From contig CBDDHH010000004.1 in NCBI GenBank assembly GCA_965228345.1, positions 74,983 through 138,982 of the forward strand: DNA of 64,000 nucleotides. Reading direction: 5' to 3'. The notes beneath the pieces are model-generated. The model saw only the letters and a list, made by a program, of their open reading frames with translations, did no database searches and had not been told where the DNA came from. Shown in pieces: positions 1,668 to 62,555 of this stretch; position 1 is the stretch's first letter; the number at the start of each line of letters is the position of its first letter. The stretch comes from Alphaproteobacteria bacterium. GTDB lineage: Bacteria; Pseudomonadota; Alphaproteobacteria; UBA7985. Position numbers and translations under genes: made by a program.

Positions 1668-1866
1668 CTCTTATACCAACGGCCAAAAAAGTTGACGCTT
1701 TTTTGGCCGTTTTATGTCTCACGGCAGAAACGCTCCGCGTTTCGCCGCCCCTTCGCTTATACCCCGAGGCGCTTTCTTAGCTCATCTCGGGGTCGCTACG
1801 GGGGCCGCAGTCGCGGCCCTATACCAGTTCATAAAGAGTCTGTTTTAAGGTGAACTGGTATAACCT
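1668..1866 (+). repeat. Modular hairpin repeat copy: left unit (TATACCAACGGCC..GGCCGTT), core hairpins, right unit (TATACCAGTTCA..TGAACTGGTATA)
   Basis: Shares modules tgtctcacggcagaaacgcNNcgcgtttcgcc, ccccgaggcgc..atctcgggg and gggggccgcagtcgcggccc with about 20 other loci in the window. Confidence 0.85.
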
Positions 1867-5074: not shown

Positions 5075-5095
5075 GCCCGAAAAAGGGTCGTCGCG

Positions 5096-5273
5096 GACGT
5101 TCCCTGCGCCCTCCAGGCTTGGAGTCCGCGTCTTCAGTGCGCGGACGTTCCCTGCGCCCTCCAGGCTTGGAGTCCGCGTCTTCAGTGCGCGGACGTTCCC
5201 TGCGCCCTCCAGGCTTGGAGTCCGCGTCTTCAGTGCGCGGACGTTCCCTGCGCCCTCCAGGCTTGGAGTCCGC
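5096..5273. repeat. Tandem array, 48-bp unit x ~3.7 (gacgttccctgcgccctccaggcttggagtccgcgtcttcagtgcgcg)
   Basis: Perfect head-to-tail copies are visible directly. The unit is a divergent variant of the GGGCGCAGGGAACGCCCGCG/GGCTCCAAGC module of the repeat family. Confidence 0.9.
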
Positions 5274-16224: not shown

Positions 16225-16262
16225 GTCTTAAAAAGTGTCACCTTTTTTGGCCATTGGTATAA
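16225..16262. repeat. Degenerate half-unit of the TATACCA hairpin family
   Basis: aaaaagtgtcaccttttttggccattggtata resembles the left unit loop plus clamp. Confidence 0.4.
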
Positions 16263-17306: not shown

Positions 17307-17560
17307 TATACCAACTCCGCTAAAAATTGACATTTTCAGCAGAGTTTTGTCTCACGGCAGAAACGCTTCGCGTTTGGGCTTTTGGGGTTGCGGTCTCACC
17401 TCGCTCGCACCGCTCGCTCGGCCCGACCGTGCAACAGGGCCTCCGCTTATACCCCGAGGCGCGTGTCCGCCGATCTCGGGGCCGCTTCGGGGACTGCGGT
17501 CGCGGCCCTTACACCAGCGAATATAAGAGCCACATAAGTGTCGCTGGTACAGCCAAGCCG
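17307..17560 (+). repeat. Modular hairpin repeat copy with optional GCGGTCTCACC..GGCCCGACCG module
   Basis: Left unit tataccaactccgctaaaaattgacattttcag, core tgtctcacggcagaaacgcttcgcgttt, ccccgaggcgc..atctcgggg, right unit acaccagcgaatataagagccacataagtgtcgctggtac. Confidence 0.85.
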
Positions 17561-17567
17561 ACTTAAA

Positions 17568-17652
17568 ATAATCACATTCTAAGTCGATAAGCTGAGCGCC
17601 AATGAAGGATATAGCGAATGCACCTTAATCAAATTAAGGCGCATTCGCTATA
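17568..17652 (-). repeat. Accessory repeat module E1 (second copy at 54344..54425) containing a long hairpin / probable bidirectional terminator
   Basis: tagcgaatgcaccttaat-caa-attaaggcgcattcgcta (near-perfect 18-bp stem) followed by T-rich tract. About 85% identical to 54344-54425 in opposite orientation. Confidence 0.7.
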
Positions 17653-17935: not shown

Positions 17936-18280
17936 CCGACTTATACCAACGGTCATAAAAAGTAACCTTTTTATGACCGTTTCGTGTCTCACGGCAGAAA
18001 CGCGTTGCGTTTCGGCTTTTTGGGGTAGCGGTCTCACCTTGCTCGCACCGCCCGACCGTGCGACGGGGCCTTCGCTTATACCCCGAGGCGCTTTCTTAGC
18101 TGATCTCGGGGCCGCGTGTTTTTGGTACGAGCGTTTCCTACGCCTTTCGGGCTTGGAGCCCAACTGTTTCGCGCGCGGGCGTTCCCTGCGCCCTTCGGGC
18201 TTGGAGCCCACTTGGGGGGGCCGCAGTCGCAGTCCCTATACAGCCGAATATAAGAGTCACTCATAATTGCCGCTGGTATT
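17928..18280 (+). repeat. Modular hairpin repeat copy (two tandem GGCTTGGAGCCC modules)
   Basis: Same module order as 28678-28965, with left unit tataccaacggtcataaaaagtaacctttttatgaccgtt and right unit ...cataattgccgctggtat. Confidence 0.85.
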
Positions 18281-19497: not shown

Positions 19498-19524
19498 CTT
19501 TCGACTAAATCAAACGAAACTCGC

Positions 19525-21537: not shown

Positions 21538-21557
21538 TACCAGGGGAAGACCCATAT

Positions 21558-21733
21558 GATACCAGCGATCATAAGAGTCATTTATAATTGCCGCTGGTAT
21601 TTGCTGTTCTCGGGGCCGCTTGTTTTTGGCGCGGGCGTTCCCTGCGCCCTTCGGGCTTGGAGCCCGCCACGGGGGCCGCAGTCGCGGCCCTATACCAGTT
21701 CATAAGGAGTCTGTTTTTGGGAGAACTGGTATT
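21558..21733. repeat. Modular hairpin repeat copy lacking central core
   Basis: gataccagcgatcataagagtcatttataattgccgctggtat, then ggcgcgggcgttccctgcgcccttcgggcttggagccc, gggggccgcagtcgcggccc and tataccagttcataaggagtctgtttttgggagaactggtat. Confidence 0.85.
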
Positions 21734-22494: not shown

Positions 22495-22497
22495 GCC

Positions 22498-23385
22498 ATG
22501 GTCAAACCCCCCACCACCGCCGCGATTCTCCACGCCCAACGCGGGCAAGATGCTAGCCTGATCTATCGGCGGGTCACCCCCATAGAACCTGCGATGACGG
22601 GGCGTTTTGCCGATTTCGTTGCGGGCGCGTTTTTGCGCAATCTTGTCATCGCCATCATCATTTTTTCGGCCATCTTGATGGGTGTTGAAACCATGGCCTG
22701 GGCCAAGACAGGCCTGGCATCGCGTATTGTACAAAGGCTCGACACCGCCGTCACCGTCGCCTTTGTTTTGGAATTGGTTGCCAAGCTAGTGGTGTTTCGC
22801 TGGCGATTCTTCCGCGACGGCTGGAACGTTTTTGATTTGCTGATTGTGATCATTTCCCTCATGCCCGCGACCCAAGGCCTAAGGGTGATCCGTACTCTGC
22901 GGGTCTTGCGGGTCCTGCGGTTGCTTTCTGCTGTGCCGTCGATGCGACAAGTCATATCGGGCTTGTTGCGCGCCATTCCTGGCATGCTGTCGGCCACGGC
23001 CCTGTTGCTGATCGTCATTTATGTCTTTGCCATCTTAAGCACCCAGTTGTTTGGTAGCCAATGCTACCAAGGATATTTGGACGACTGCACCTATTTTTTC
23101 GGGACCCTTTACGACTCGCTGTTTACGCTGTTTCAAATCATGACGCTGGAATCTTGGTCCCACGGCATTGTGCGCCCCATTGCCGATGCCTATCCATGGG
23201 CGCGGGGATTTTTTGTCCTTTATGTCGTCATCACCGCTTTTGCGGCGCTCAACTTGTTCATTGGGGTTGTGGTGAATGCTATGGACGGAGCGCATAAGGA
23301 CGAGGCGGAGGCCGATCAACCAACCTTAGCCGACCTGCAAGCGCAAATCGGTGAACTCAAGGCGCTAATTCAGACTCAGAAGTAA
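22498..23385 (+). CDS. Voltage-gated sodium channel, NaChBac/BacNav family (single 6-TM domain)
   Basis: S4 with Arg every third residue (IRTLRVLRVLRLLS). Selectivity filter FQIMTLESWSHG matches the BacNav TLESW signature. C-terminal coiled coil. Confidence 0.8.
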   Translation: MVKPPTTAAILHAQRGQDASLIYRRVTPIEPAMTGRFADFVAGAFLRNLVIAIIIFSAILMGVETMAWAKTGLASRIVQRLDTAVTVAFVLELVAKLVVFRWRFFRDGWNVFDLLIVIISLMPATQGLRVIRTLRVLRVLRLLSAVPSMRQVISGLLRAIPGMLSATALLLIVIYVFAILSTQLFGSQCYQGYLDDCTYFFGTLYDSLFTLFQIMTLESWSHGIVRPIADAYPWARGFFVLYVVITAFAALNLFIGVVVNAMDGAHKDEAEADQPTLADLQAQIGELKALIQTQK

Positions 23386-23401
23386 GCGTACCAAGTGCTC
23401 T

Positions 23402-23448
23402 AATACCAACTCCGCTGAAAATGTCAATTTTTAGCGGAGTTGGTATTA
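23402..23448. repeat. Solo palindromic unit (TATACCAACTCCGCTGAAAATGTCAATTTTTAGCGGAGTTGGTATTA)
   Basis: Perfect palindrome between convergent channel and GST genes. Confidence 0.85.
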
Positions 23449-24053
23449 GAGCGAGGGATGGGCCGAGATTTGGGTGTAGAGGTTTTGTGTTTGAAACCGC
23501 TGGACCCAGGCTTGCACACCTGGGTAGGTCGTGAGATCAAGGCCTGCGTCGCCCGCTAGGGCCGTGTAGGGGTAGAGGCTGATATCGGCGATGGTGGGGC
23601 GGTCGGTTGCGAGCCAGGGGGTGTGGCCGAGTTGCATGTTGAGCAGGCGCAGAGCATCGTGGGACTTGTCGAGCAGGGCCTGAAAGTCCTGCGGGCGGCT
23701 TTGATCCCAACCGCGATAGAGTTTCCACGAGCGCGCTACGGCCAGCGCGGGTTCGTGGCTGTACTGTTCCCAGAACAACCAGGACAGCACGCGCGATTGC
23801 GCGCTGAGATCTTGGGGCCACCAATCGGTGCCTTGGGCCAAGCGCCAAAGGATCGCGTTGGATTCGATCAAAGTTTCGCCCGAAGTCAAGACCAGGCAAG
23901 GAATTTTGCCAGCGGGGTTGATCCGTTGGTACCAGGGTGCCCGCGTTTCGCCGCGGATCGTATCGATTGATTGATAGGCATAGTCGATCTCCAAGAACGA
24001 CAGCATCAATCGCACTTTCCAGCAGTTGCCCGAGGTGGCTTGTCCGTAGAGTT

Positions 24054-24057
<4 letters not shown>
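23446..24057 (-). CDS. Glutathione S-transferase
   Basis: MKLYGQATSGNCWKVRLML..IPCLVLTSGETLIESNAILWRL thioredoxin-like GST N-domain. Confidence 0.8.
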
Positions 24058-25925
<1,868 letters not shown>

Positions 25926-25944
25926 AGCGCTGGCCTGATTTGTC

Positions 25945-26108
25945 TAATACCAACGGTCATAAAAAGTGACTTTTTATGACCGTTTCGTGTCTCCCGGCAG
26001 AAACGCGTTGCGTTTCGCCTCCGACGGGGCCTTCGCTTATACCCCGAGGCGCTTTCGCGCCGATCTCGGGGCCGCTACGAGGGCCGCAATCGCGGCCCTT
26101 ATGCCAGC
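25945..26108 (+). repeat. Modular hairpin repeat copy (minimal form)
   Basis: taataccaacggtcataaaaagtgactttttatgaccgtt, tgtctcccggcagaaacgcgttgcgtttcgcc, ccccgaggcgc..atctcgggg, gagggccgcaatcgcggccc. Confidence 0.85.
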
Positions 26109-26174
26109 AGACATGGAAGGCATTTTTCATCGCTGCTAGCATCATGGCGTTTTGGTTGCTGCGCCTTTCGACCC

Positions 26175-27365
26175 TCAAGATTCGAGCAGCGGTTGGACGC
26201 CGGGAAGGGCGCGGCCCTCCATCCACTCCAGAAATGCGCCGCCCGCGGTGGAAAAATAGCTGAGATCGGCCAGCACACCTGCACCGTCGAGCGCGGCCAA
26301 GGTATCGCCGCCGCCAGCGATTGAGCGCAGCGCGCCGGATCGGGTTTGGGTGGCGACCTGTTGGGCCACGCCTTGCGTGGCGGCCGCAAAGGGGGGAAAT
26401 TCGAAGGCCCCGAGCGGCCCGTTCCAGATCAAGGTTTTGACTTTAGGCAGCAACTGGCAAATCATGGCCGCCGACTTCGGCCCGAAATCGAGGATCATCT
26501 GATCCTCTGGCAAGTCCGCCAAAGCGCTCGACTGCGCAGCTTCGCCGCGATTGGGGGCCGGGGCGTAACAAATATCGGTGGGCAAAATGACCTCGCACCC
26601 AAGGCCCGAAGCGCGGTCCAGCAACGCCAAAGCTTCGCGCGCCAAGGTCGGTTCGCACAACGACGCCCCAACCCCGTGCCCTTGGGCATGAAGGAAGGTA
26701 TTGGCCATGCCCCCACCAATGACGAGGATGTCAGCCTTGGTCACCAGATTGGTCAGCAGATCGAATTTGGTCGAGACCTTGGCGCCGCCAACGATAGCCA
26801 TCAAGGGACGGTCGGGCATGGCAAGGGCCATGTCGAGGGCGCGCAGTTCCTCGACCATCAAATCCCCCGCATAGGCGGGCAAGAGACTGGCGACGGCGGC
26901 GGTCGAGGCGTGCGCGCGGTGGGCCGCCGAAAAAGCGTCGTTGACGTAGAGATCCCCCAGGGCCGCCAGGTCCCGGGCGAAGGTGGTCTCATTGGCTTCC
27001 TCGGCCACCTCAAATCGCAAGTTTTCCAGCACCAGGATCTGGCCCGCCTCCAGGGCCCTTGCCGCCGCCAGGGCCGCCGTGCCCCGCACATCGGGGACGA
27101 ATTGAACCGGCATGTCCAAAACGGTGCTTAAGGCGCTGGCAACGGGCGCGAGGCTCAGCTCGGGAACGCATGTTCCTGCCGGTCGGCCAAAATGCGAGAT
27201 CAGAACGATCCGCGCACCGCGCGCAACTAGGCGTTTGAGCCCCGGGGCCAAGCGGTGCAAGCGCGCCCTACTGGTAACTTGGCCGTCGGCCAAGGGCACA
27301 TTCAAATCGGCCCGCACCAAGAGGGTGCGATCCCGGACTTCAACATCGGAAATGGAGCGAATCAT
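26175..27365 (-). CDS. pgk: Phosphoglycerate kinase
   Basis: 396-aa canonical PGK (..RADLNVP.., ..GGGASLEL..-like C-terminus FLEWMEGRALPG). Confidence 0.95.
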   Translation of the reverse strand: MIRSISDVEVRDRTLLVRADLNVPLADGQVTSRARLHRLAPGLKRLVARGARIVLISHFGRPAGTCVPELSLAPVASALSTVLDMPVQFVPDVRGTAALAAARALEAGQILVLENLRFEVAEEANETTFARDLAALGDLYVNDAFSAAHRAHASTAAVASLLPAYAGDLMVEELRALDMALAMPDRPLMAIVGGAKVSTKFDLLTNLVTKADILVIGGGMANTFLHAQGHGVGASLCEPTLAREALALLDRASGLGCEVILPTDICYAPAPNRGEAAQSSALADLPEDQMILDFGPKSAAMICQLLPKVKTLIWNGPLGAFEFPPFAAATQGVAQQVATQTRSGALRSIAGGGDTLAALDGAGVLADLSYFSTAGGAFLEWMEGRALPGVQPLLES

Positions 27366-27396
27366 GGAAACCTTGGGTTTATTTTGAGGAACTTCT

Positions 27397-27490
27397 TATA
27401 CCAATGCTCATAAAAAGTGACCTTTTTATGACCGTTTCGTATCTTATACCAACTCCGCTAAAAATTGACATTTTCAGCGGAGTTGGTATT
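27397..27490. repeat. Two adjacent palindromic units (type 2 + type 3)
   Basis: tataccaatgctcataaaaagtgacctttttatgaccgtttcgtatc followed by ttataccaactccgctaaaaattgacattttcagcggagttggtatt. Confidence 0.85.
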
Positions 27491-28271
27491 AAAGCGTTCG
27501 CCGCCGCCAACTGAGGCGCAGCAACTGCAGCGGCAGGGGGCGGACATAGGCCGGATGGCCAAGGGGCAGGCGCGCAAGGGCACGCAACCAGCGGCGCACC
27601 AGGTGCGCCGGGGCGCCGAGGGCGAACAGGGCCCCACTCGGCGGGATTTGGGATGCGAGCTCCCGCGCCCGATCGAGGTGCATCTGGGCTTGCGCCGCCA
27701 AGTCCATCACCGCAGCGGCGGGGTCGTCGTGCCAGGTCTTGAGCCCGCGCAGGGTCTGCGCTTGCCCCCCCCTTGCCAGGGTGCGGGCTAGGCCGACGAA
27801 CCCAAAGGCGCAGCCCAGGTGATTGGCGAAGCCTTCATGCCCCGTGAGGCCCAGAGCCCGGCCCTGGGCCACCAGCACGCTGCCGCTGGTCTGCGCCAGG
27901 TAGGCGCGCAGGTCTTCCAGCGTTGCGAACGGGCCCTCGATCAAGTCCGCCTCGCGGCCGTCGATCATGCGGTTCAAGGCCGGCAGGTCGAGCGCGTCGG
28001 CACTGGCCGCCAAGTCGGCCAAGGCCTTTACAACTTGATGACCCTGCGCTGGTTTGCCGCTCTCCAGCATCGCCACCACCTCGCGCCACCACTGCAAGCG
28101 GATGCGGCCGAGATCGGCGTTCGTAACGCGCTGGGTAGTGCGCGCCAGCTCGAGATTGAAGGCCGCCAAGGCCAGGAGATGGGGTTGCGCCGATGCAGGG
28201 GCGCAGAGGGCCAGGTGGAAGCGGTCGGGATCTTGAGCGCGTACCTGCGCCGTGCAGTAATCAAGATTCAT
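27489..28271 (-). CDS. Squalene/phytoene synthase family protein (short, NDUFAF6-like)
   Basis: 260-aa all-helical protein with isoprenoid-synthase-like D-rich segment (MIDGREADL) and overall similarity to the phytoene/squalene synthase fold. Confidence 0.5.
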   Translation of the reverse strand: MNLDYCTAQVRAQDPDRFHLALCAPASAQPHLLALAAFNLELARTTQRVTNADLGRIRLQWWREVVAMLESGKPAQGHQVVKALADLAASADALDLPALNRMIDGREADLIEGPFATLEDLRAYLAQTSGSVLVAQGRALGLTGHEGFANHLGCAFGFVGLARTLARGGQAQTLRGLKTWHDDPAAAVMDLAAQAQMHLDRARELASQIPPSGALFALGAPAHLVRRWLRALARLPLGHPAYVRPLPLQLLRLSWRRRTL

Positions 28272-28447
28272 CCCGTCTTATTCGCGGTTGATCGGATGAT
28301 TTGTATGGCGTGACGCGGGAAAGGCTTTAGAATCAAGGTTCTAGAACAAGAAACGACAGCTAGGACCGAGCCACGCCAAGGGTGAAACACGATCTCTATT
28401 CACGACATCATTCAACCAGAATCTTTCCGTGGAGAGCCGGACCGAGC

Positions 28448-28495
28448 ATCTTATACCAGTTCATAAATAGTCTGTTTTTAGGTAACTTGGTTTTA
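28448..28495. repeat. Degenerate solo unit (tataccagttcataaatagtctgtttttaggtaacttggtttta)
   Basis: Matches right-unit type with decayed second arm. Confidence 0.6.
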
Positions 28496-28677
28496 GGCCC
28501 AAGCGCCAGCTAGAACAAGATCAAAATCGGCATTTCGCGGCATCATCATCATTTCCAGGTTGCCATGAACCTCTGCCCTAAAGCTATAGATGAAGACTTT
28601 TGGATGGCTTCCTCGCCCAGCAATGGCACAGAACATAGGGATTTTGACCCTGTTTAGGAGATCGTGTGTTACTGTCT

Positions 28678-28965
28678 AATACCAACGGCGAAAAAAGCTG
28701 ACACTTTTTTATGTCTCACGGCAGAAACGCTTCGCGTTTCGCCTGTTTGATGCGGTCTCTACTCGCTCGCTACGCTCGCTCAGCCCGACCGCGCGACAGG
28801 GCCTTCGCTGATACCCCGAGGCGCTTTCTTAGCTCATCTCGGGGCCGTTTGTTTTTGGCGCGGGCGTTCCCTGCGCCCTTTGGGCTTGGAGCCCGCTGCG
28901 GGGGCCGCAGTCGCGGCCCTTGATACCAGCGATCATAAGAGTCATTTATAATTGCCGCTGGTATA
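28678..28965 (+). repeat. Archetypal full-length modular hairpin repeat (all modules, single copy each)
   Basis: Order: unit1, core hairpin (gaaacgc-ttc-gcgtttc), GCGGTCTC..CCCGACCG module, CCCCGAG hairpin, 48-bp GGCGCGGGCGTTCCCTGCGCCC/GGCTTGGAGCCC module, GGCCGCAGTCGCGGCC hairpin, unit2. Confidence 0.9.
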
Positions 28966-29084
28966 ACAAACTCATCGTCTATTGTGCGAGATCTTTGGCT
29001 ATGTGTTGTCGCCGAGGGTTCTAAACTTGGCCCTACTTGGAATCCGCTATAGGCGATGCAAAGCCTGTGGCCTATAGACAGGTC

Positions 29085-30473
29085 ATGCGCGCCACCAAGA
29101 TTATTGCCACCCTAGGCCCGGAAACGGCACATCCGGAGGCCATAGCAGGCCTGGTCGCTGCCGGCGTCAACGCATTTCGCCTGAACTTATCCTACGATGA
29201 GCCTTCGCATCACGCGGCCTTGGTGGACGCTGTTCGCGCGGTAGAGCAAGAAGTAGGTCGTCCTATAGCCTTGATCGCGGATGTATCGGGGCCGCGCTTT
29301 CGTATCGGCCCTTTCGCCCATGGATCACTCGCGTTGGAAACAGGTCAGTCACTGATTTTAGACCAAGACGAGACGCCAGGAGGTCGTGATCGTGTCCACC
29401 TGCCGGTCCCCGCCGCCTTTACCAGTAGCCGCATTGGTGATCTCCTGCGCTTGGACGACGGCCGGGTGGCGCTGCGGGTGCTCAAGGTCAGCCCAGTTGC
29501 CCTCCATACGGTCGTGGTTTCAGGGACGGAGCTTTCTGGAAACAAGATCATTTCCCTTCCCAACGTGCCGCTTCAGCATACAAAGCTCAGCACCTCCGAT
29601 TGCGATCAGATTGATTGGGCGCGGCAAGCAGGTATCGACTGGCTCGGCGTTTCTTGGCCCCATGAGGCCCGAACGTGGCAGGCGTTGCGGGCGCGTGCTG
29701 GGTCCATGAAGTTACTTGCGAAGATCGAAAGCCGCGCGTGCCTCGCGGCGGCAACAGCGTTGATCGACGGTGCCGACGGCCTATTGGTGGCGCGCGGGGA
29801 TTTGGGTTATGACTTGCCTGCGGAGGAAATCCCAGAATGGCAGAAACGCTTGGTTCGCGACGCGCGTGCGGCGGGGAAACCCGTGGTCATTGCCGCCCAA
29901 ATGCTGGAATCTATGGTCTCCAGTCCCGCCCCGACCCGCGCCGAAGCATCGGACGTGGCCAACGCGGTCAAGGATGGCGCGGACGCCCTTATGCTTTCAG
30001 CCGAGACCGCTATTGGTGCCTATCCGCGCGAGGCGGTCAGTCTGATGGCGTCGGTTATCGACCAGACCGAGGTCCAGGAGTCCGGGCCTCTCCAGCCCAT
30101 GGGCACGGCCCCCACGATCACCCAGACGATCGCCTATTCCGCCGCCCAAGCGGCGGATGCCCTGGGCGCACCGGTCATCTTTTGCTTTACGACCAGTGGT
30201 TCGACCGCCACTGCCGTGGCGCGGACGCGGCCCAAGACCGCTATTGTCTGCGCCTCCGACCGGCCCCAAACTCTGCGGCAAATGCAAATTTCCTGGGGCC
30301 TTGATTGCGTGGCGGCCCCGGCCCTAAAGTCATGGAAGGACGTGGTCGACACGGCGGTCAAGCTGGCCAAAGACCGGCAAATCCCCGCGGGTGCCCCCCT
30401 GGTCATCACCGCGGGCATGCCGTTTGGACGGTCGGGGTCCACCAACATCTTAAGGATCGCAACTGCGGAGTAA
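29085..30473 (+). CDS. pyk: Pyruvate kinase
   Basis: MRATKIIATLGPE.. canonical PK N-terminus, 462 aa from this start. Confidence 0.9.
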   Translation: MRATKIIATLGPETAHPEAIAGLVAAGVNAFRLNLSYDEPSHHAALVDAVRAVEQEVGRPIALIADVSGPRFRIGPFAHGSLALETGQSLILDQDETPGGRDRVHLPVPAAFTSSRIGDLLRLDDGRVALRVLKVSPVALHTVVVSGTELSGNKIISLPNVPLQHTKLSTSDCDQIDWARQAGIDWLGVSWPHEARTWQALRARAGSMKLLAKIESRACLAAATALIDGADGLLVARGDLGYDLPAEEIPEWQKRLVRDARAAGKPVVIAAQMLESMVSSPAPTRAEASDVANAVKDGADALMLSAETAIGAYPREAVSLMASVIDQTEVQESGPLQPMGTAPTITQTIAYSAAQAADALGAPVIFCFTTSGSTATAVARTRPKTAIVCASDRPQTLRQMQISWGLDCVAAPALKSWKDVVDTAVKLAKDRQIPAGAPLVITAGMPFGRSGSTNILRIATAE

Positions 30474-30475
30474 CC

Positions 30476-30895
30476 ATGGTCCTGTTTCATCTCGCCTTTG
30501 CCGTCAACGACTTGCCGACAACGCGCCAGTTCTACGAGGGGCTACTCGGCTGCCGCGTTGGGCGCACCGCGGAAAAGTGGATCGATTTTGATTTTTACGG
30601 CCATCAGATCAGCGCCCATGTCAAACCCGAAGAAACCGGGCTGGCATCGGGCAACACGGTCGATGGCAAGACCGTCCCAACCCGCCATTTTGGCCTGATT
30701 CTCGCATGGGACACCTGGCAAGCCCTGGCCGACCGCCTCAAGGCCGCCAAAACCAAGTTTCTGATCGATCCCTACATTCGCTTCGCCGGAGAAGTCGGCG
30801 AGCAAGGCACTTTCTTCATCGCCGACCCCAGCGGCAACGCGCTAGAGTTCAAAACCTTCCGTGACATGGACCAAGTCTTCGCCAACGAAGCGTAA
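30476..30895 (+). CDS. VOC (glyoxalase/bleomycin-resistance/dioxygenase) family protein
   Basis: MVLFHLAFAVNDLPTTRQFYEGLLGC.. typical VOC beta-alpha-beta-beta-beta start. ATG is 2 bp after the pyk stop. Confidence 0.6.
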   Translation: MVLFHLAFAVNDLPTTRQFYEGLLGCRVGRTAEKWIDFDFYGHQISAHVKPEETGLASGNTVDGKTVPTRHFGLILAWDTWQALADRLKAAKTKFLIDPYIRFAGEVGEQGTFFIADPSGNALEFKTFRDMDQVFANEA

Positions 30896-31126
30896 AGCCC
30901 TCGCCAATGCACGCTAAAATTCCCTTCCGAGACCTCAGCATAAGTCGACTTCGGGCCAAAGAACCACAATACATGGTGTCACCGAAGCGAAATAAGCACA
31001 ATATCTTGCTGTCAACTTTCGGTTCTCTGATTTATGCTGCGGCCTCCTGCCAAAGCAACGCGAGGGATTTTTAGGGAAACTTCGGCAACTTCCAAGTCGT
31101 ACCAGGCACCCCCTCACCGTGAGGGG

Positions 31127-31202
31127 TGGTGGAGCATAGCGGGATCGAACCGCTGACCTCTTCGCTGCCAGCGAAGCGCTCTTCCAGCTGAGCTAATGCC
31201 CC
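31127..31202 (-). tRNA. tRNA-Ala (anticodon GGC), CCA encoded
   Basis: Reverse complement GGGGCATTAGCTCAGCTGGAAGAGCGCTTCGCTGGCAGCGAAGAGGTCAGCGGTTCGATCCCGCTATGCTCCACCA. Cloverleaf has G3:U70 and the anticodon loop ctGGCag. Followed by hairpin cccctcac-cg-gtgagggg. Confidence 0.85.
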
Positions 31203-31281
31203 AAAGCGAGTGCGCGGTTAGCTTGAGAGTTGAAAGAAGGCAAGCCAGAAAATCTTCGAGCCATGGCACCAAACAGCGCCT

Positions 31282-31476
31282 CATACCAGTTCACCTCAAA
31301 ACAGACTCTTTATGAACTGGTATAGGGCCGCGACTGCGGCCCCCGTAGCGGCCCCGAGAACAGCGGACACCCGCCTTGGGGTATAAGCGAGGGCCCCGTC
31401 GGGGGCGAAACGCGAAGCGTTTCTGCCGTGAGACAAAACTCTGCTGATTATGTCAATGTTTAGCGGAGTTGGTATG
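31282..31476 (-). repeat. Modular hairpin repeat copy (reverse orientation)
   Basis: cataccagttcacctcaaaacagactctttatgaactggtat ... ggcgaaacgcgaagcgtttctgccgtgagaca ... tgtcaatgtttagcggagttggtat. Confidence 0.85.
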
Positions 31477-31478
31477 AG

Positions 31479-31859
31479 TCACAGATCGCGCAAGACTTGG
31501 CGCAAATGCTCGGCCTGATCGAAGCTGGTGTCGTAGACGAACGTCAGCTTCGGCGTGTACTTAGAACTGCTCTTTTTCGCCACCGCCGCGCTGAGGGTTG
31601 GCCGGGCGTTTTTGAGGGCAAACTCGCAATCGGCCTCGGGCACGGGCCCCAGGGGCACATAGAAAGCCTTGGCCGTGCGCAAATCGGCGCTGCAGCGCAC
31701 TTCGGTGAAGGTGAGGCTCAAGGGATGCCCGCGTTGATCGAGCAAATCTTCGCGCAGGCCTGCTTCGCACAAGGTATGGCGAATGTGCTCGCCTATCTTG
31801 AGTTGGCGTTGGCTTTGCCCGCGCCCATCGCGCGGTCTGGGTTGACGGCGGCTTTTCAT
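31479..31859 (-). CDS. rbfA: Ribosome-binding factor A-like protein
   Basis: ..RQLKIGEHIRHTLCEAGLREDLLD..LTFTEVRCSADLRTAKAFYVPLG.. fits the RbfA KH-like pattern. Start set at MKSRRQ. Not in a nusA-infB context, so only moderate confidence. Confidence 0.45.
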   Translation of the reverse strand: MKSRRQPRPRDGRGQSQRQLKIGEHIRHTLCEAGLREDLLDQRGHPLSLTFTEVRCSADLRTAKAFYVPLGPVPEADCEFALKNARPTLSAAVAKKSSSKYTPKLTFVYDTSFDQAEHLRQVLRDL

Positions 31860-31953
31860 GGGCGCGCCTGTGGCGTGCTTGCCGATGAAAAGCAAGAGTT
31901 TGCGCTTGTCCGCCTGCCGCCAAGGCCCTAGCGCGCCACTTATGAAATCTGGC

Positions 31954-33150
31954 ATGAGTGAACAGCGGACCCGAAGGGCGTTTCGGGCCATTGCGGGGTG
32001 TTTCTTCATGCTGGGCTGGCTGGTTCCCACGCTGTTCGCACAGTTTCCTACCGTACGCGAAAATTTGCAAATTGAAGAATGGCAAATCACGGTCTTCATC
32101 CTCACCATGGCGCTGGGGGCGATCCCATCCATGATCGCCAGTTCCTGGGCGATTGGGCGCTGGGGCAGCCAGCGACTTGCCCTGATCTTTCACCCGCTGA
32201 TTCTGATTTTTCCCGTCAGCTTCATCATGGCCCCAACTTATGAGGTGTTGTTGGGCGTCGGTTTTGCCATGGGTATTTGTACGGGTTTTTTTGACGTCGT
32301 GGCCAATACCCAGGGCAGCTTGCTGGAACGTGTCACCGACCGATTTTTTATGACCAGCATCCATGCGCTCTTCGCCTTGGGCGTCTTGGCCGGGTCCTTC
32401 TTAGCCTCCGTAGCCCACTTTGTTGGCCTGTCTTTGCCGCTATTTTTTGCGTGGCTTACTCTTGTGTCCAGCGCCCTGTTCCTGTTCATTTGGCGCGACT
32501 TCCTCCCTTTTGCGGTAGAACGCGACCAGGAACGCAGCGATGGGGCCGACCTTGGGACCGTTTCGCCCAGGATTTCCCGGTTCTTGCTCATCGCCCTGGC
32601 GGTTTTGATGGTGCTGGGAATCGAGGCCGAGGCCGCTCACTACGATTGGTTAGCGCTCTATTTTGCCGACGAGTTCGTATGGCGGGGGGAGGCCCTGCCC
32701 AAGCTGGGGTCAAATCTGGCCATGGTGTTCTTTTCCTCGGGGCTGCTGTTGGCGCGTCTGGTTGGGGACGGCGTCGCTGATCGAATCGGGCGCCCCAAAT
32801 TGCTCTTGTTCGGCACCTTGATCGGGCTGGCCGGCTTGGTCTGGCTGATCGCGACGCCTGCGTATGGGCAGGGGTTGCTGGCGGCCTTTTTGATCGGGTT
32901 TGGTTTTGCCTTTTTCTTTCCGATTTTTGTGGCGGCAGCGGGGCGTCTGCGCGGCATTCGCCCCGCCTTTGGCGTGGCCCTGGTCTCGGCCATGGGCTGG
33001 GCGTCGATCTTTATCGGGCCGCCGCTGATCGGATTTATCGAGCACCACTACGGGTTCCGCTGGGCCTACGCGTCCATCATCCCTGTGGCGGCGTTCGTCG
33101 CGATCTTGGGACCATGGGTCGTGTTCAAATCCCGTCCTGGCAATCACTAG
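31954..33150 (+). CDS. MFS-type transporter (12 TM)
   Basis: Two six-helix halves, GRxxxxG-like loop (GRWGSQRL), hydrophobic throughout. Confidence 0.65.
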   Translation: MSEQRTRRAFRAIAGCFFMLGWLVPTLFAQFPTVRENLQIEEWQITVFILTMALGAIPSMIASSWAIGRWGSQRLALIFHPLILIFPVSFIMAPTYEVLLGVGFAMGICTGFFDVVANTQGSLLERVTDRFFMTSIHALFALGVLAGSFLASVAHFVGLSLPLFFAWLTLVSSALFLFIWRDFLPFAVERDQERSDGADLGTVSPRISRFLLIALAVLMVLGIEAEAAHYDWLALYFADEFVWRGEALPKLGSNLAMVFFSSGLLLARLVGDGVADRIGRPKLLLFGTLIGLAGLVWLIATPAYGQGLLAAFLIGFGFAFFFPIFVAAAGRLRGIRPAFGVALVSAMGWASIFIGPPLIGFIEHHYGFRWAYASIIPVAAFVAILGPWVVFKSRPGNH

Positions 33151-38009: not shown

Positions 38010-38039
38010 GAGTCTGTCTTGGCTAGTAAGACCAGCGGC

Positions 38040-38078
38040 AAATATAAATGACTCTTATGACCGTTGGTATAAGTTCTA
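38040..38078. repeat. Partial solo unit (aaatgactcttatgaccgttggtataag)
   Basis: Right half of type-2b unit plus clamp. Confidence 0.5.
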
Positions 38079-41042: not shown

Positions 41043-41090
41043 GGCTTATACCAGCGGCAATTATAAATGACTCTTATGACTGTTGGTATA
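41043..41090. repeat. Solo palindromic unit (TATACCAGCGGCAATTATAAATGACTCTTATGACTGTTGGTATA)
   Basis: Between convergent atpF and the dehydrogenase gene. Confidence 0.8.
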
Positions 41091-42347: not shown

Positions 42348-42586
42348 GATACCAGCGGCAATGATAAATGACTCTTATGATCGCTGGTATAAGGGCCGCG
42401 ACTGCGGCCCCCGTAGCGGGCTCCAAGCCTAAAGGGCGCAGGGAACGCCCGCGCCAAAAACAAGCGGCCCCGAGAACAGCTAAGAAAGCGCCTCGGGGTA
42501 TCAGCGAAGGGGAGGCGAAACGCGGAGCGTTTCTTCCGTGAGACAAAACTCCGCTGAAAATGTCAATTTTTAACGGAGTTGGTGTA
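42348..42586 (-). repeat. Modular hairpin repeat copy (reverse orientation)
   Basis: gataccagcggcaatgataaatgactcttatgatcgctggtat ... gggcgcagggaacgcccgcgcc ... ggcgaaacgcggagcgtttcttccgtgagaca ... aaaatgtcaatttttaacggagttggtgta. Confidence 0.85.
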
Positions 42587-43083: not shown

Positions 43084-43370
43084 TTATACCAGCGGCAATG
43101 ATAAATGACTCTTATGATCGCGGGTATAAGGGCCGCGACCGCGGCCCCCGTAGCGGGCTCCAAGTCCAAAGGGCGCAGGGAACGCCCGCGCCAAAAACAA
43201 ACGACCCCGAGATCGGCGGACACGCGCCTCGGGGTATAAGCGAAGGCGCGGTCGGGCTGAGCGAGCGTAGCGAGCGAGGTGAGACCGCATCAAACAGGCG
43301 AAACGCGAAGCGTTTTCGCCGCGAGACAAAACTCTGCTGAAAATGTCAATTTTTAGCGGAGTTGGTATAA
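43084..43370 (-). repeat. Modular hairpin repeat copy (reverse orientation, with GCGGTCTCACC module)
   Basis: About 90% identical to 42348-42586 plus the extra module. Ends 10 bp before the paiB-like ATG. Confidence 0.85.
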
Positions 43371-50687: not shown

Positions 50688-51172
50688 GGCGGCAATTGTG
50701 AGTGAGTCTTAATGGTCGCTGGTATAAGGGCCGCGACTGCGGCGGCCCCAAGCGGGCTCCAAGCTCGAAGGGCGTAGGGAACGCCCGCGCACGAAAGGGT
50801 TGGGCTCCAAGCTCGAAGGGCGCAGGGAACGCCCGCGCACGAAAGGGTTGGGCTCCAAGCTCGAAGGGCGCAGGGAACGCCCGCGCACGAAAGGGTTGGG
50901 CTCCAAGCTCGAAGGGCGCAGGGAACGCCCGCGCACGAAAGGGTTGGGCTCCAAGCTCGAAGGGCGCAGGGAACGCCCGCGCCAAAAACAAGTGGCCCCG
51001 AGAATAGCTAAGAAGGCGCCTCGGGGTATAAGCGAAGGCCCCGTCGCACGGTCGGGCTGAGCGAGCGGTGCGAGCGAGGTGAGACCGCCGCTCAAAAAAG
51101 CCGAAACGCGGAGCGTTTCTGCCGTGAGACCAAACTCCGCTGAAAATGTCAATGTTTAGCGGAGTTGGTACT
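50688..51172 (-). repeat. Largest modular hairpin repeat copy with 5 tandem 48-bp modules (50754..50985)
   Basis: Five head-to-tail gggctccaagctcgaagggcgcagggaacgcccgcgcacgaaagggtt units embedded between standard end/core modules. Confidence 0.9.
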
Positions 51173-54343: not shown

Positions 54344-54632
54344 TATAGCGAGTGCGATTTAATTTGATTAAGGCGCAATCACTATATCCTTTATTGGCGC
54401 TCAGCTTATCGTCTCAAAATGTGATCGTTTTAATACCAGCGGCGAATTAAAATGACTCTTTTATTCGCTGGTATAAGGGCCGCGACCGCGGCCCCCGTAG
54501 CGGCCCCGAGAATAGCGCGAAAGCGCCTCGGGGTATAAGCGAAGGCCCCGTCGGAGGCGAAACGCGAAGCGTTTCTGCCGTGAGACATAAAACGGCTGAA
54601 AAAGTGTCAACTTTTTTCGCCGTTGGTATAAG
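54344..54632 (-). repeat. Modular hairpin repeat copy (reverse) preceded by accessory module E1 (54344..54425), starts 1 bp after the pyrC stop
   Basis: tatagcgagtgcgatttaatttgattaaggcgcaatcactata..., then aataccagcggcgaattaaaatgactcttttattcgctggtat ... ggcgaaacgcgaagcgtttctgccgtgagaca ... ggctgaaaaagtgtcaacttttttcgccgttggtat. Confidence 0.85.
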
Positions 54633-60401: not shown

Positions 60402-60593
60402 CATACCAGCGGAGATTTAAAATGACTCTTTTATTCGCTGGTATAAGGGCCGCGACTGCGGCCCCCGTAGCGGCCCCGAGATGAGCTAAGAAAGCGCCTC
60501 GGGGTATAAGCGAAGGGGAGGCGAAACGCGAAGCGTTTCTGCCGTGAGACATAAAACGGCTGAAAAAGTGTCAACTTTTTTCGCCGTTGGTAT
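60402..60593 (-). repeat. Modular hairpin repeat copy (reverse orientation, minimal form)
   Basis: cataccagcggagatttaaaatgactcttttattcgctggtat ... ggcgaaacgcgaagcgtttctgccgtgagaca ... ggctgaaaaagtgtcaacttttttcgccgttggtat. Confidence 0.85.
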
Positions 60594-62451: not shown

Positions 62452-62502
62452 GGTAGTTTAGGGTAATAACCAGAATGGGATCACCTTGGGAATACCTAAA
62501 AT

Positions 62503-62555
62503 TAAGAGTCGCTCATTCTTGCCGCTGGCATAACCCCTGTGCCCGCTGGTATAGG
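62503..62555. repeat. Degenerate solo unit (..gccgctggcataacccctgtgcccgctggtatagg)
   Basis: Contains two CCGCTGG(C/T)ATA clamp copies. Confidence 0.4.

What the first reader, a model, noticed from the sequence alone, without database searches (positions are those of the whole stretch)
28678..28965. Dense family (~20 copies) of modular, multi-hairpin intergenic repeats clamped by TATACCA...TGGTATA palindromic units
Copies (partial or full) were read at 1668-1866, 3398-3645, 16225-16262, 17307-17560, 17928-18280, 21558-21733, 23402-23448, 25945-26108, 27397-27490, 28448-28495, 28678-28965, 31282-31476, 38040-38078, 41043-41090, 42348-42586, 43084-43370, 48873-49150, 50688-51172, 54344-54632, 60402-60593 and 62503-62555. 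That is about 4.4 kb, or 7% of the window, and every copy is intergenic. The architecture has a left ~45-bp perfect palindrome (three variants, all TATACCAAC-stem-AAAAA(G)TTGAC-stem-GTTGGTATA), then a core hairpin tgtctcacggcaGAAACGC-ttc-GCGTTTCgcc, then an optional GCGGTCTCACC..GGCCCGACCG module, a CCCCGAG-N13-CTCGGGG hairpin, an optional 48-bp GGCGCGGGCGTTCCCTGCGCCC/GGCTTGGAGCCC module, a GGCCGC-agtc-GCGGCC hairpin, and a right ~45-bp palindrome (variants with central AGAGTC). Units occur alone, in pairs, or bracketing the full element, and in both orientations. This is more elaborate than typical REP/BIME or MITE families, and I cannot assign it to a named family. Positions directly after stop codons (48872, 54343, 23385) suggest terminator or mRNA-stability roles. 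The hairpin-clamp structure suggests mobilisation by a hairpin-recognising (RAYT/IS200-like) enzyme encoded elsewhere, or an RNA-level function.
Basis: seen in the sequence. Interest (0 to 1): 0.85.

Follow-up and report, generated by a model that had tools for sequence, protein, structure and literature searches.

The report
Dense MITE family of IS630 type

Summary
The window holds 13 complete composite elements of 187-483 bp, plus solo palindromic units, one partial copy and a bare 48-bp tandem array. Together they cover about 4.2 kb (6.5%), all between genes. The window's own genome is not in the collections. A sister species (MAG OZ245893.1, genes 84-90% identical) carries the same family, and there 78 complete copies have 3-bp TNA flanks with the same middle base in 48 of 57 cases (16 expected). 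One window copy (54434-54628) is a clean TTA-duplicating insertion relative to an uninterrupted paralogous site at 17544-17610. A 1172-bp insertion sequence in the sister genome (L041) has the same ends, TAA/TAA flanks and an IS630-family transposase (NF033545, 246 bits). The named ISAli3 of Azospirillum lipoferum shares the ends (TACCAGCGGC-N9-TGAC) and has TGA/TGA flanks. The elements are therefore MITEs of an ISAli3-like IS630 element, not REP/RAYT or IS200-type elements. No Rfam, plasmid, JGI-metagenome or literature match was found. Two points remain open: why most window copies have non-matching flanks, and why the GC-rich interior is more conserved between the species than the genes are. 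Verdict: a new member of a known kind, of modest interest.

The parts
28680..28963 (+). Flagged archetype: composite MITE L1-C-M-H-V-G-R1, flanked by TAA (28677-28679) and TAA (28964-28966)
   Evidence: Sequence read; modules placed; flanks
1674..1860 (+). Composite MITE L1-C-H-G-R2; flanks TTA / TAA
3399..3640 (-). Composite MITE L3-C-H-V-G-R1, inserted where the sister species has an overlapping stop/start (ATGA) junction between the MatE and Ppx genes. An adjacent 17-nt fragment of module M lies at 3647-3663. Flanks TCA / TGA.
17309..17549 (+). Composite MITE L2-C-M-H-G-R1; flanks TTA / CAG
17944..18278 (+). Composite MITE L3-C-M-H-V(x2)-G-R; flanks TTA / TTA
25948..26138 (+). Composite MITE L3-C-H-G with a degenerate R end. 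This is an old copy: the sister species has only a decayed C+V remnant at the same ABC-F/PGK intergenic site.
31284..31474 (-). Composite MITE L2-C-H-G-R2, next to tRNA-Ala (31127-31202); flanks TCA / TGA
42350..42584 (-). Composite MITE L2-C-H-V-G-R1; flanks TTA / TCA
43087..43367 (-). Composite MITE L2-C-M-H-V-G-R1; flanks TTA / TAA
48915..49148 (-). Composite MITE L2(degenerate tip)-C-H-V-G-R2; flanks TGA / TGA
50688..51170 (-). Composite MITE L2-C-M-H-V(x5)-G-R1 with a degenerate R tip; the 48-bp V array runs 50754-50982 (4.8 copies)
54434..54628 (-). Composite MITE L1-C-H-G-R1; flanks TTA / TTA. Shown to be an insertion by comparison with the uninterrupted paralogous site at 17544-17610.
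60404..60592 (-). Composite MITE L1-C-H-G-R1; flanks TAA / TGA
21560..21731 (+). Partial element: an R1 unit, then the 3' half of H, V, G and R2 (no L, no core)
5092..5273 (+). Bare array of 3.8 identical 48-bp V units without termini, intergenic upstream of the MatE start (ATG about 5073); the sister species has about 2.3 units fewer
16228..16262 (-). Solo L1-like unit (truncated)
23404..23445 (-). Solo L2 unit, a perfect palindrome that extends 6 nt into the flanks; flanks TAA / TTA
27399..27488 (+). L3 unit of the truncated type (27399-27440) followed by a solo L2 unit (27447-27488, flanks TTA / TTA)
28454..28492 (+). Solo R2-like unit; flanks TTA / TTA
38030..38069 (-). Solo hybrid unit (L-type tip TACCAACGG plus R-type tip GCCGCTGGTC), i.e. 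the two ends with no interior; flanks TTA / TTA
41047..41087 (-). Solo hybrid unit (L-type tip plus R-type tip); flanks TTA / TAA
61692..61733 (-). Divergent solo unit TACCAAGCGCC..GCTTGGTA just after the stop codon of ORF 61741-62451
62471..62528 (-). Remnant of the left end of the parent IS630-family insertion sequence (97% identical to the L041 IS left end over 58 nt). It lies upstream of a non-transposase ORF. No transposase gene is present in the window.
17544..17610 (+). Uninterrupted ('empty') paralogue of the insertion site of the copy at 54434-54628. It is 86% identical over 66 nt once that MITE and one TTA are removed.

Best explanation
[quoted passage not shown] They are mobilised in trans by the DDE transposase of an ISAli3-like member of the IS630 family.

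Shown:
- Each composite is bounded by inverted ends with a bipartite signature: TACCA(A/G)CGG(C) at positions 1-10, a hypervariable spacer, and (T)GAC at positions 20-23.
- The same signature is at both ends of a 1172-bp transposase-bearing IS in the sister genome and of ISAli3 in Azospirillum.
- Insertion goes into TNA and duplicates it (3 bp). The preferred context is roughly C|TNA|G, and the target is often the stop codon TAA or TGA of a gene.

Inferred:
- The transposase's paired helix-turn-helix DNA-binding region contacts the two conserved blocks one helical turn apart, which would leave the spacer free to drift.
- The roughly 45-bp 'clamp' palindromes are not recognition hairpins for a single-strand enzyme. 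The left one copies the hairpin that the IS right end itself carries. The right one is a complete solo mini-MITE (an IS-left-end arm plus a short inverted tip).
- The composite therefore behaves like a miniature compound transposon: two end units carrying a GC-rich, hairpin-rich cargo (C, optional M, H, 0-5 tandem V units, G).
- Modules are reshuffled among copies by recombination or gene conversion. V varies by slippage.
- Copies decay in place. Any effect on neighbouring transcripts is secondary and untested.
For: Target-site duplication. In 78 complete copies from the sister genome OZ245893.1, both flanks are TNA in 57, and the middle base is identical in 48 of those 57. The shuffle mean is 16.1 and the maximum 30 in 2000 shuffles.

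Direct filled/empty comparisons:
- Window copy 54434-54628 interrupts, with TTA duplicated, a 66-nt sequence that is intact at 17544-17610.
- In L007 a new copy sits in the single TTA that every other copy has between module G and unit R, with TTA on both sides.

Autonomous partner. L041 5490-6661 is 1172 bp with ends TACCAACGG.../...CCGCTGGTA and flanks TAA/TAA. Its product scores NF033545 'IS630 family transposase' at 245.9 bits against a cut-off of 100, and carries Pfam DDE_3 plus HTH_32/33. Homologues of 350-357 aa align end to end.

Shared ends. Positions 1-10 and 18-27 are conserved and 11-17 variable in the MITE R ends. TGAC sits at positions 20-23 in the L ends and the R ends; the L041 IS has TGAC at its right end and CGAC at its left. 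ISAli3 (L066, 312-1475) has TGA|TACCAGCGGCTTTGAAGTGTGAC...GCCGCTGGTA|TGA.

Presence in the window's genome. A 58-nt piece of the IS left end, 97% identical, lies at 62471-62528.

MITE-like behaviour:
- No protein-family hit other than spurious ORFs.
- Nested and tandem insertions.
- Depletion from divergent promoter regions (5 of 56 copies, against 55 of 382 background gene pairs) and enrichment between convergent genes (18 of 56 against 60 of 382).
- Decay in place at an orthologous site.

Lineage restriction. The family is absent from 29 kb of the next relatives and from JGI metagenomes.
Against: - In the window itself the flanks keep T and A, but the middle base matches in only about 4 of 13 composites, which is the chance level. 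I attribute this to recombination between copies, because all four L1/L2 x R1/R2 combinations occur and synteny with the sister species breaks at element-bearing spacers. That attribution is an inference.
- Only one transposase-bearing copy was seen, in the sister species. It is split at an A8 run, which could be a pseudogene, programmed frameshifting or a long-read homopolymer error.
- No transposase gene is in the window.
- To my knowledge the canonical IS630-family duplication is TA, not TNA.
- The interior shares nothing with the IS, so the MITE is not a simple deletion derivative.
- No clean orthologous empty site between the two species was found.
- Solo units are too few for a duplication test.
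Confidence: 0.85

Rival explanations
1. REP/BIME-like elements. On this view the palindromic units are REP sequences recognised as hairpins and spread by a RAYT (Y1 HUH) transposase encoded elsewhere, and the composites are BIME-like mosaics.
For: Units are roughly 40-48-bp palindromes. They occur singly, in pairs and bracketing other motifs, in both orientations, only between genes and often just after stop codons. The organisation is mosaic, like BIMEs.
Against: - A 3-bp target-site duplication is present; REP/RAYT and other Y1 systems leave none.
- The conserved tip is TACCA, not the GT[AG]G tetranucleotide of REPs.
- The ends match an IS630-family IS over 23-30 nt.
- tblastn with E. coli RayT finds nothing better than E=1.4 in 586 kb. 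This is a weak negative, since only part of each genome is held and RAYTs are divergent.
Confidence: 0.03
2. Palindrome-associated derivatives (PATEs) of an IS200/IS605-type element, moving as single strands and recognised through subterminal hairpins.
For: There are hairpins at both ends, and the right unit has an asymmetric bulged stem.
Against: - IS200/IS605 elements insert 3' of a fixed tetra- or pentanucleotide without duplication, and their end hairpins lie in the same orientation.
- Here the ends are inverted repeats with a duplicated TNA.
- No TnpA(Y1)-like sequence is present in the held DNA.
Confidence: 0.02
3. MITEs as above, but mobilised by an IS5-family (IS1031-group) or PIF/Harbinger-like transposase, the groups classically associated with 3-bp TNA/TWA duplications, rather than by the IS630-family element.
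For: To my knowledge the TNA 3-bp duplication is the hallmark of the IS1031 group and of Harbinger/Tourist, whereas IS630/Tc1/mariner classically duplicate TA. DDE_Tnp_1 transposase genes exist in the sister genome.
Against: - The only IS found with the MITE's ends encodes an IS630-family enzyme and itself has TAA/TAA flanks.
- ISAli3, a named IS630-family element, has the same ends and TGA/TGA flanks.
- A second, classical IS630 member in the same genome uses CTAG, so both habits exist within the family.
Confidence: 0.04
4. The composites are primarily functional host elements, such as multi-copy structured RNA genes or terminator / mRNA-stabiliser / insulator modules. On this view the conserved GC-rich interior is kept by selection and the transposon ends are only the vehicle.
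For: - The interior consensus is 108/112 identical between the two species, while orthologous genes are 84-90% identical.
- Both strands fold better than shuffles, z = -4.4 and -5.1.
- The M-containing form has the core hairpin followed by GGCTTTTTGG, which the simple terminator scan picks up once.
- Copies lie close to gene 3' ends.
Against: - There is no Rfam match.
- Internal stems never vary, so there is no covariation support; the covariation term is 0.01.
- Low diversity in the core is partly ascertainment, because loci were fetched by an exact core match.
- Orientation relative to the genes is not clearly biased (12 against 21).
- The terminator scan does not single out the elements overall: 18 sites found against 18.9 expected.
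- An orthologous copy has been allowed to decay to a remnant in the sister species.
- Stop-codon proximity follows in part from the TNA target.
Confidence: 0.12

Closest known systems
ISAli3 (IS630 family; Azospirillum lipoferum 4B, FQ311868.1) and the ISAli3-like IS at L041 5490-6661 of MAG OZ245893.1
   Same: The terminal signature is identical, TACCA(A/G)CGGC-N9-TGAC. Both have 3-bp TNA flanks (TGA/TGA and TAA/TAA). The right-end hairpin (CAGCGG..CCGCTG) is like the MITE L unit, and GACTC sits at positions 21-25 of the left end as in the MITE R end. The transposases are 57% identical.
   Different: These are about 1.17-kb autonomous elements with a transposase gene. The window's elements are 40-483 bp, non-coding, and have an interior unrelated to the IS.
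RUP (repeat unit of pneumococcus), a MITE thought to be mobilised by IS630-Spn1 (from my own knowledge; not compared by sequence here)
   Same: A small non-coding element with inverted ends matching an IS630-family IS. It is high-copy, intergenic and inserts at a T/A-containing target.
   Different: RUP is about 107 bp, is a single module, and is reported with a TA duplication. The host phylum is different. It has no tandem-repeat module and no compound two-unit architecture.
BOX elements of Streptococcus pneumoniae (boxA-boxB(n)-boxC) (from my own knowledge and the review PMC10969869)
   Same: The layout is modular, with fixed terminal modules and a roughly 45-48-bp internal module present in a variable number of tandem copies. 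BOX elements are strongly folded, intergenic, and cluster with or nest in other repeats.
   Different: No transposase partner or duplication is established for BOX. Here both are identified. The sequences are presumably unrelated, but I did not test this.
Correia elements (NEMIS) of Neisseria (from my own knowledge)
   Same: A dense intergenic MITE with inverted ends beginning TATA.., a T/A target, and several length variants produced by internal deletion.
   Different: Correia elements have a TA duplication, 26-bp ends of unrelated sequence, and no known parent IS. Functional promoter, IHF and RNase III sites are documented for Correia; none is shown here.
REP/BIME of enterobacteria and RIME / Sm-repeats of Sinorhizobium (from my own knowledge)
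   Same: They look like mosaic combinations of palindromic units and other short motifs in extragenic DNA.
   Different: REPs have a GT[AG]G head, no duplication, and RAYT partners. The elements here fail those tests (see Membership tests).
Tourist-like MITEs / PIF-Harbinger (eukaryotes) and tandem-repeat-containing MITEs such as DTC84 of the clam Donax (PMC3879986, listed)
   Same: They share the 3-bp T(N/W)A duplication and, in the case of DTC84, a central block of a variable number of tandem repeats inside a MITE.
   Different: The transposase superfamily and the hosts are different. The resemblance is convergent.

Membership tests
MITE (non-autonomous class II element) | Small size (tens to a few hundred bp) and no coding capacity | tested here: met
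   Copies are 40-483 bp. Only spurious overlapping ORFs occur. The interior shares no similarity with the transposase gene.
MITE (non-autonomous class II element) | Terminal inverted repeats | tested here: met
   The L outer end TACCAACGGC.. and the R outer end ..GCCGCTGGTA are conserved over 88 copies.
MITE (non-autonomous class II element) | Target-site duplication of fixed length | tested here: met
   In the sister genome the middle base of TNA matches in 48 of 57 copies, against 16 expected. A paralogous empty/filled pair exists in the window, and a nested insertion in L007. Caveat: only about 4 of 13 window copies still have matching flanks.
MITE (non-autonomous class II element) | High copy number with an autonomous element sharing the ends | tested here: met
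The parent-type IS was identified.
IS630 family (for the partner IS) | DDE transposase matching the family model, with N-terminal helix-turn-helix domains | tested here: met
   NF033545 scores 245.9 bits against a cut-off of 100. Pfam DDE_3, HTH_32, HTH_33 and HTH_29 are present.
IS630 family (for the partner IS) | TA dinucleotide duplication, typically within CTAG/NTAN (my own knowledge of ISfinder/TnPedia descriptions) | tested here: not met
   Flanks are TNA (3 bp) for the MITEs, the L041 IS and ISAli3. A different IS630 member in the same genome does sit in CTAG. So this looks like a sub-group habit, C|TNA|G in place of C|TA|G. I could not consult ISfinder's entry for ISAli3.
REP / BIME with RAYT | Conserved 5' GT[AG]G tetranucleotide heading an imperfect palindrome | tested here: not met
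   The units begin T-N-A-TACCA.
REP / BIME with RAYT | No target-site duplication | tested here: not met
   A duplication is present.
REP / BIME with RAYT | A RAYT gene in the genome, typically flanked by REPs | tested here: inconclusive
   tblastn with E. coli RayT finds no hit better than E=1.4 in 586 kb. Most of both genomes is not held.
IS200/IS605-derived PATE | Insertion 3' of a fixed tetra- or pentanucleotide, no duplication, and no terminal inverted repeats | tested here: not met
   The ends are inverted and TNA is duplicated.
Any Rfam RNA family | Score at or above the family's gathering threshold | tested here: not met
   Only a tRNA was found in the whole window. At E<=1 the archetype gives only a chance 16-bit hit.
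BOX-like modular repeat | Fixed end modules with a variable number of tandem internal modules | tested here: met
   There are 0-5 copies of the 48-bp V unit between H and G. This is an architectural analogy only. Sequence relatedness to pneumococcal BOX was not tested.

The most novel reading that the evidence does not exclude
The most novel reading not excluded concerns the roughly 110-nt interior (core hairpin, CCCCGAG hairpin, GGCCGC hairpin, with or without M and V). It may not be junk cargo but a functional structured nucleic acid, captured between two mini-MITEs and dispersed as a miniature compound transposon. Candidate functions are a cis-acting aid to transposition, or an RNA element that terminates or stabilises neighbouring transcripts. 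That would explain why the interior consensus is 96% identical between two species whose genes are only 84-90% identical, while the transposase-binding spacers drift freely. A smaller novelty is that this IS630 sub-group makes 3-bp TNA duplications and lands on stop codons about twice as often as expected.
Probability: 0.15. Interest if true: 0.55.

Novelty: new member of a known kind. Interest (0 to 1): 0.3.

Why it matters
For annotation, about 6.5% of this region, and probably several hundred sites genome-wide if the density holds, should be masked as transposon-derived rather than searched for regulatory RNAs or mistaken for ORFs. Several long spurious ORFs run through the copies.

For genome biology, the family marks a poorly sampled alphaproteobacterial lineage whose next relative has a phosphoglycerate kinase only 71% identical. 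Its copies coincide with breaks in synteny between sister species, sit inside a former overlapping stop/start gene junction, and are themselves targets for other insertion sequences. They are therefore likely drivers of rearrangement.

For transposon biology, it offers a clean natural data set: dozens of near-identical copies with intact duplications. This defines a bipartite end for an ISAli3-like IS630 transposase and documents a 3-bp TNA duplication in that family.

None of this changes current concepts.

Tried and rejected
- **Exact-protein look-up of a window gene.** Not on record. The window's genome is not in the collections. It is a sister species of OZ245893.1, not the same genome.
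- **Orthologous empty sites between the two species.** Examined at five junctions. None was clean. Spacers differ by replacement, extra fragments or loss of synteny. One site (ABC-F/PGK) holds an old shared copy that has decayed differently in each species.
- **Pairs of ends 0.5-4 kb apart with matching flanks, as candidate full-length elements**. Four of five candidates examined simply enclosed ordinary genes. Only L041 held a transposase.
- **Covariation test of the hairpins**. The internal stems are invariant, so it is uninformative. Compensated changes occur only between sub-types of the terminal units, which the inverted-repeat origin already explains.
- **Terminator scan**. Counts equal the shuffle expectation and do not single out the elements.
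- **Wider searches.** Two JGI metagenome scans, a plasmid search, Rfam at E<=1, and the next relatives' contigs all found nothing.
- **Literature.** Two searches on IS630 with TNA found nothing relevant, and a search for 'ISAli3' found no paper.
- **RayT tblastn**. Negative.
- **Duplication test on solo units**. Too few units (5 + 5) to say anything.
- **Closest transposase relative, P0123**. It has different ends (CAGTT..), so it is not informative for this sub-group.
Full report
The flagged segment 28678-28965 is one copy of a repeat family that is far above chance in this 64-kb window.
- The 18-nt core GTCTCACGGCAGAAACGC occurs 13 times at <=3 mismatches, against 0.08 expected.
- ATACCCCGAGGCGC occurs 13 times against 0.81.
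- TATACCAAC occurs 8 times against 0.09.
- An unsupervised repeat search recovers every module.

I oriented and stacked the 13 full copies and mapped module consensus sequences back onto the window. In the + orientation it reads: TNA | L unit (TACCAAC-stem-loop-stem-GTTTTGT, variants L1/L2/L3) | core C (GTCTCACGGCAGAAACGC-nnn-GCGTTTCGCC) | optional M (about 55 nt, GCGGTCTC..CCCGACCG) | H (CCCCGAG-N13-CTCGGGG, three discrete loop variants) | 0-5 tandem 48-nt V units | G (GGCCGCAGTCGCGGCC) | TTA | R unit (a complete palindrome TACCAGCG..CGCTGGTA, variants R1/R2) | TNA.

My census is 13 composites, one partial copy, about eight solo units, a bare V array and fragments. They total 4177 bp, or 6.5% of the window, and all lie between predicted genes.

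**2. Where it comes from.** The window is ordinary chromosome: Ppx, MatE, PGK, pyruvate kinase, an ABC-F protein and so on, and one tRNA-Ala.

The window is not that genome. Shared genes are 84-90% identical at the nucleotide level, so it is a sister species carrying the same family. The lineage is poorly sampled. The best PGK match is 90% (strains of the OZ245893 species in ENA sample ERZ25074195), and the next is only 71%. Contigs of those next relatives (29 kb) contain no copy. Two JGI metagenome scans, the plasmid collection and Rfam give nothing.

**3. The copies are transposition products with a 3-bp duplication.** In the sister genome 78 complete copies could be delimited.
- Both flanks read TNA in 57 of them, and the middle base is the same on the two sides in 48 of those 57. 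The expectation is 16.1 and the maximum 30 in 2000 shuffles. It is complementary in only 4.
- The flanks further out suggest a palindromic preference of roughly C|TNA|G.

Two direct filled-versus-empty comparisons agree.
- In the window, a 66-nt sequence intact at 17544-17610 (..CCGAC TTA AAAT..) recurs around the copy at 54434-54628. It is 86% identical once the element and one TTA are removed.
- In L007 a complete copy sits in the single TTA that all other copies have between G and R, with TTA on both sides.

A duplication of fixed length together with inverted ends means a DDE-type cut-and-paste enzyme. That exclusion rests on established knowledge of those families.

**4. The partner enzyme.** I searched the held loci for pairs of ends enclosing 0.5-4 kb. 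This turned up L041 5490-6661, a 1172-bp element with tips TACCAACGG.. and ..CCGCTGGTA and flanks TAA/TAA. It has two ORFs that join across an A8 run into a 354-aa protein.
- That protein scores 245.9 bits on NCBIfam NF033545 'IS630 family transposase' (cut-off 100) and carries Pfam DDE_3 plus HTH_32/33/29.
- Database homologues are single ORFs of 350-357 aa, 55-68% identical, aligned end to end. They are named IS630-family transposases, and one is named 'IS630-like element ISAli3' from Azospirillum lipoferum.
- The split in L041 may therefore be a pseudogene, programmed slippage, or a homopolymer error of a long-read assembly.

I fetched ISAli3 itself (L066, element 312-1475, 1164 bp). It reads ..GATC TGA|TACCAGCGGCTTTGAAGTGTGACTCG ... 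CAATGTCTAAAGCCGCTGGTA|TGA GAGC... The tips are the same as the MITE's and the TGA/TGA flanks are again a 3-bp TNA.

The window has no transposase gene. It does retain 58 nt of the IS left end, 97% identical, at 62471-62528.

**5. Anatomy of the ends.** A position-by-position profile of the 88 L outer ends and 88 R outer ends was compared with the IS ends.
- TACCA(A/G)CGG(C) at positions 1-10 is conserved.
- Positions 11-17 are hypervariable.
- Positions 20-23 read (T)GAC in the L ends, the R ends and three of the four IS ends examined (L041 right end, both ISAli3 ends); the L041 left end has CGAC.

This accounts for an oddity of the alignment of 54 short-form copies. Nucleotide diversity is 0.245 in the R spacer and 0.20 in the H loop, but 0.03 in G, and 78 copies have 60 different R interiors.

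My inference is that the paired helix-turn-helix DNA-binding region of the transposase reads two blocks about one helical turn apart and ignores the spacer. This rests on what is known of Tc1/mariner-type transposases and was not tested here.

The 'clamp' palindromes have a simple origin.
- The IS right end already contains a hairpin (CAACGG..CCGTTG in L041, CAGCGG..CCGCTG in ISAli3). The MITE L unit is an elaboration of it, with its inner tip degraded (GTTTTGT instead of GTTGGTA).
- The R unit is about 30 nt of the IS left end followed by a short inverted tip. That is the same thing as the solo units.
- Two solo units (38030-38069 and 41047-41087) are simply an L tip joined to an R tip.

The composite thus resembles a miniature compound transposon: two end units carrying a cargo that has no similarity to the IS.

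**6. Where they land and what happens to them.** I used a crude GC3-based gene caller.
- Copies are enriched between convergent genes (18 of 56, against 60 of 382 background gene pairs) and depleted between divergent genes (5 of 56, against 55 of 382).
- In tandem spacers they lie a median of 16 nt from the upstream stop and 109 nt from the next start.
- Orientation relative to the genes is 12 same against 21 opposite.
- For 18 of 99 stop-side neighbours the duplicated TNA is the stop codon itself.
- Among 29 copies with intact duplications and two flanking genes, 10 are at a stop codon against 5.4 expected if all intergenic TNA sites were equal (p about 0.01).

This is a modest excess. It may reflect sequence context or selection, and it depends on my gene calls.

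One window copy (3399-3640) sits where the sister species has the MatE stop overlapping the Ppx start (ATGA). An extra 36 nt there includes a fragment of module M, so the history at that site is complex.

Copies decay in place. At the ABC-F/PGK spacer the window has a full element with a degenerate R end, and the sister species has only a C+V remnant.

Copies are also targets for other mobile DNA. An IS3-family element and IS110-family genes interrupt or abut copies. New copies nest in the TCA inside the core or in the TTA before R.

The V module behaves as a minisatellite.
- It is present in 0-5 copies inside elements.
- A terminus-less array of 3.8 identical units lies at 5092-5273, just upstream of the MatE start.
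- That array is about 2.3 units shorter in the sister species.

**7. What is not explained.**

(a) Flanks in the window. In the window the flanks keep T and A, but the middle base agrees in only about 4 of 13 composites, which is chance level. In the sister genome it agrees in 84%. All four combinations of L1/L2 with R1/R2 occur among just 13 copies, and M and V assort freely, so copies have recombined. Synteny with the sister species ends at element-bearing spacers. I therefore think reciprocal exchange between older copies has swapped flanks, but I did not demonstrate this.

(b) Conservation of the interior. The interior consensus of window copies and sister-species copies is 108/112 identical, which is more conserved than the genes. 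Part of the low diversity is ascertainment, because the loci were fetched by exact core match. G and the H stem were required only loosely (at most 3 mismatches in G) and are equally uniform. Possible causes are constraint on master copies, recent exchange between the species, or a function of the cargo.

Tests for structure or function are silent.
- The internal stems never vary, and the covariation term is 0.01.
- Both strands fold well (z = -4.4 and -5.1), as any palindrome-rich DNA would.
- A consensus terminator scan finds no excess.

**8. Comparison with known systems.** The family works like, and passes the tests for, a MITE. See Membership tests.
- Its partner is a member of the IS630 family by its protein. 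The 3-bp TNA duplication departs from the TA that I know as canonical for IS630/Tc1/mariner.
- The named ISAli3 shares the TNA habit, and a second IS630 member in the same genome sits in CTAG. It is therefore a sub-group trait, C|TNA|G in place of C|TA|G. I could not check what ISfinder records.
- The modular A-B(n)-C layout recalls pneumococcal BOX elements. The IS630 link recalls RUP. The density and TATA-like tips recall Correia elements. The mosaic look recalls BIME/RIME. These are analogies drawn from my own knowledge, and the REP/RAYT tests fail.
- No paper in the library mentions ISAli3, and the 2024 review of prokaryotic MITEs does not list an alphaproteobacterial family of this kind.

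**9. Verdict.** The feature is real and correctly described. It is a previously undescribed but conventional MITE family of an ISAli3-like IS630 element, expanded in one uncultured alphaproteobacterial lineage. The RAYT/IS200 mechanism is not supported. A transcript-level role is neither supported nor excluded.

Noticed in passing
window 62471-62552 (-) and ORF 61741-62451 (-): A 58-nt remnant of the IS630-type IS left end (97% identical to L041) is preceded by TTA and by a further degenerate tip. It sits directly upstream of a 236-aa ORF that is not a transposase; by eye the protein looks like a secreted coiled-coil protein, and Pfam gives only a sub-threshold CENP-F leucine-zipper hit (22 bits, cut-off 34.5). 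A divergent solo unit follows the ORF's stop at 61692-61733. The gene looks bracketed by end-like sequences.
   Followed up: partly
window 5092-5273: A tandem array of 3.8 perfectly identical 48-bp V units has no MITE termini and lies between an upstream gene and the MatE start. The orthologous array in the sister species (L036) is about 2.3 units shorter, so it is a minisatellite at a conserved site.
   Followed up: partly
window 3396-3680 versus L036 4180-4195: In the sister species the MatE stop and the Ppx start overlap (ATGA). In the window a MITE plus a 36-nt stretch containing an M-module fragment separates them, and 'TATGATAT' is present on both sides. The Ppx start codon now reads across the element tip and the TGA flank.
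   Followed up: partly
L064 2675-6929 and L065 4503-6929 (strains of the OZ245893 species): A MITE core is split at GTGTCT^CACGG by a block that ends in an IS110-family gene (DEDD_Tnp_IS110 / Transposase_20) and also carries DDE_Tnp_1 transposases. The strains differ by a further 1.8-kb IS. L016 has an unrelated IS110-family gene and an IS3-family element next to or inside copies. IS110-type elements may be targeting the repeats.
   Followed up: partly
L064 about 13845-15080; L065 13845-16515: A second, unrelated IS630-family element has ends TCCTTCG../..GAGGA and sits in CTAG (the classical IS630 target). It is single in one strain and part of a duplicated segment of about 1.4 kb in the other.
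   Followed up: partly
R outer ends of the MITEs (e.g. window 28934-28942) and IS left ends (L041, L066): GACTC/GAGTC, which matches GANTC, is conserved at positions 21-25 of the IS left end and of the MITE R end but not of the L end. GANTC is the site of the alphaproteobacterial CcrM methylase. This could couple end activity or transposase expression to replication, as Dam sites do in IS10/IS50. This is pure inference.
   Followed up: no
L unit loops, e.g. window 1692-1697, 17327-17332: The loop of the L1 and L2 units is TTGACA, the sigma-70 -35 consensus, facing inward. I saw no convincing -10 hexamer 17 nt downstream by eye. The promoter scan, run on 16000-32000, reported no site in an L unit.
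   Followed up: partly
window 23399-23450: The palindrome of the solo L2 unit continues 6 nt beyond the tips into the flanks (CTCTAA..TTAGAG). Its TNA flanks are therefore complementary (TAA/TTA) rather than identical. Several other window copies also have complementary flanks (TCA/TGA, TTA/TAA).
   Followed up: partly
window 31127-31202 (-): tRNA-Ala(GGC), the only RNA gene in the window, lies 80 nt from the composite at 31284-31474.
   Followed up: no
window 17544-17610 and 54380-54433 / 54629-54650: About 66 nt of non-element DNA adjoining an R-type tip (..TGGTA CAG CCAAGCCGAC TTA AAAT..) is duplicated at two loci 37 kb apart, at 86% identity. This suggests that flanking DNA has occasionally been carried along or that the segment was duplicated.
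   Followed up: partly
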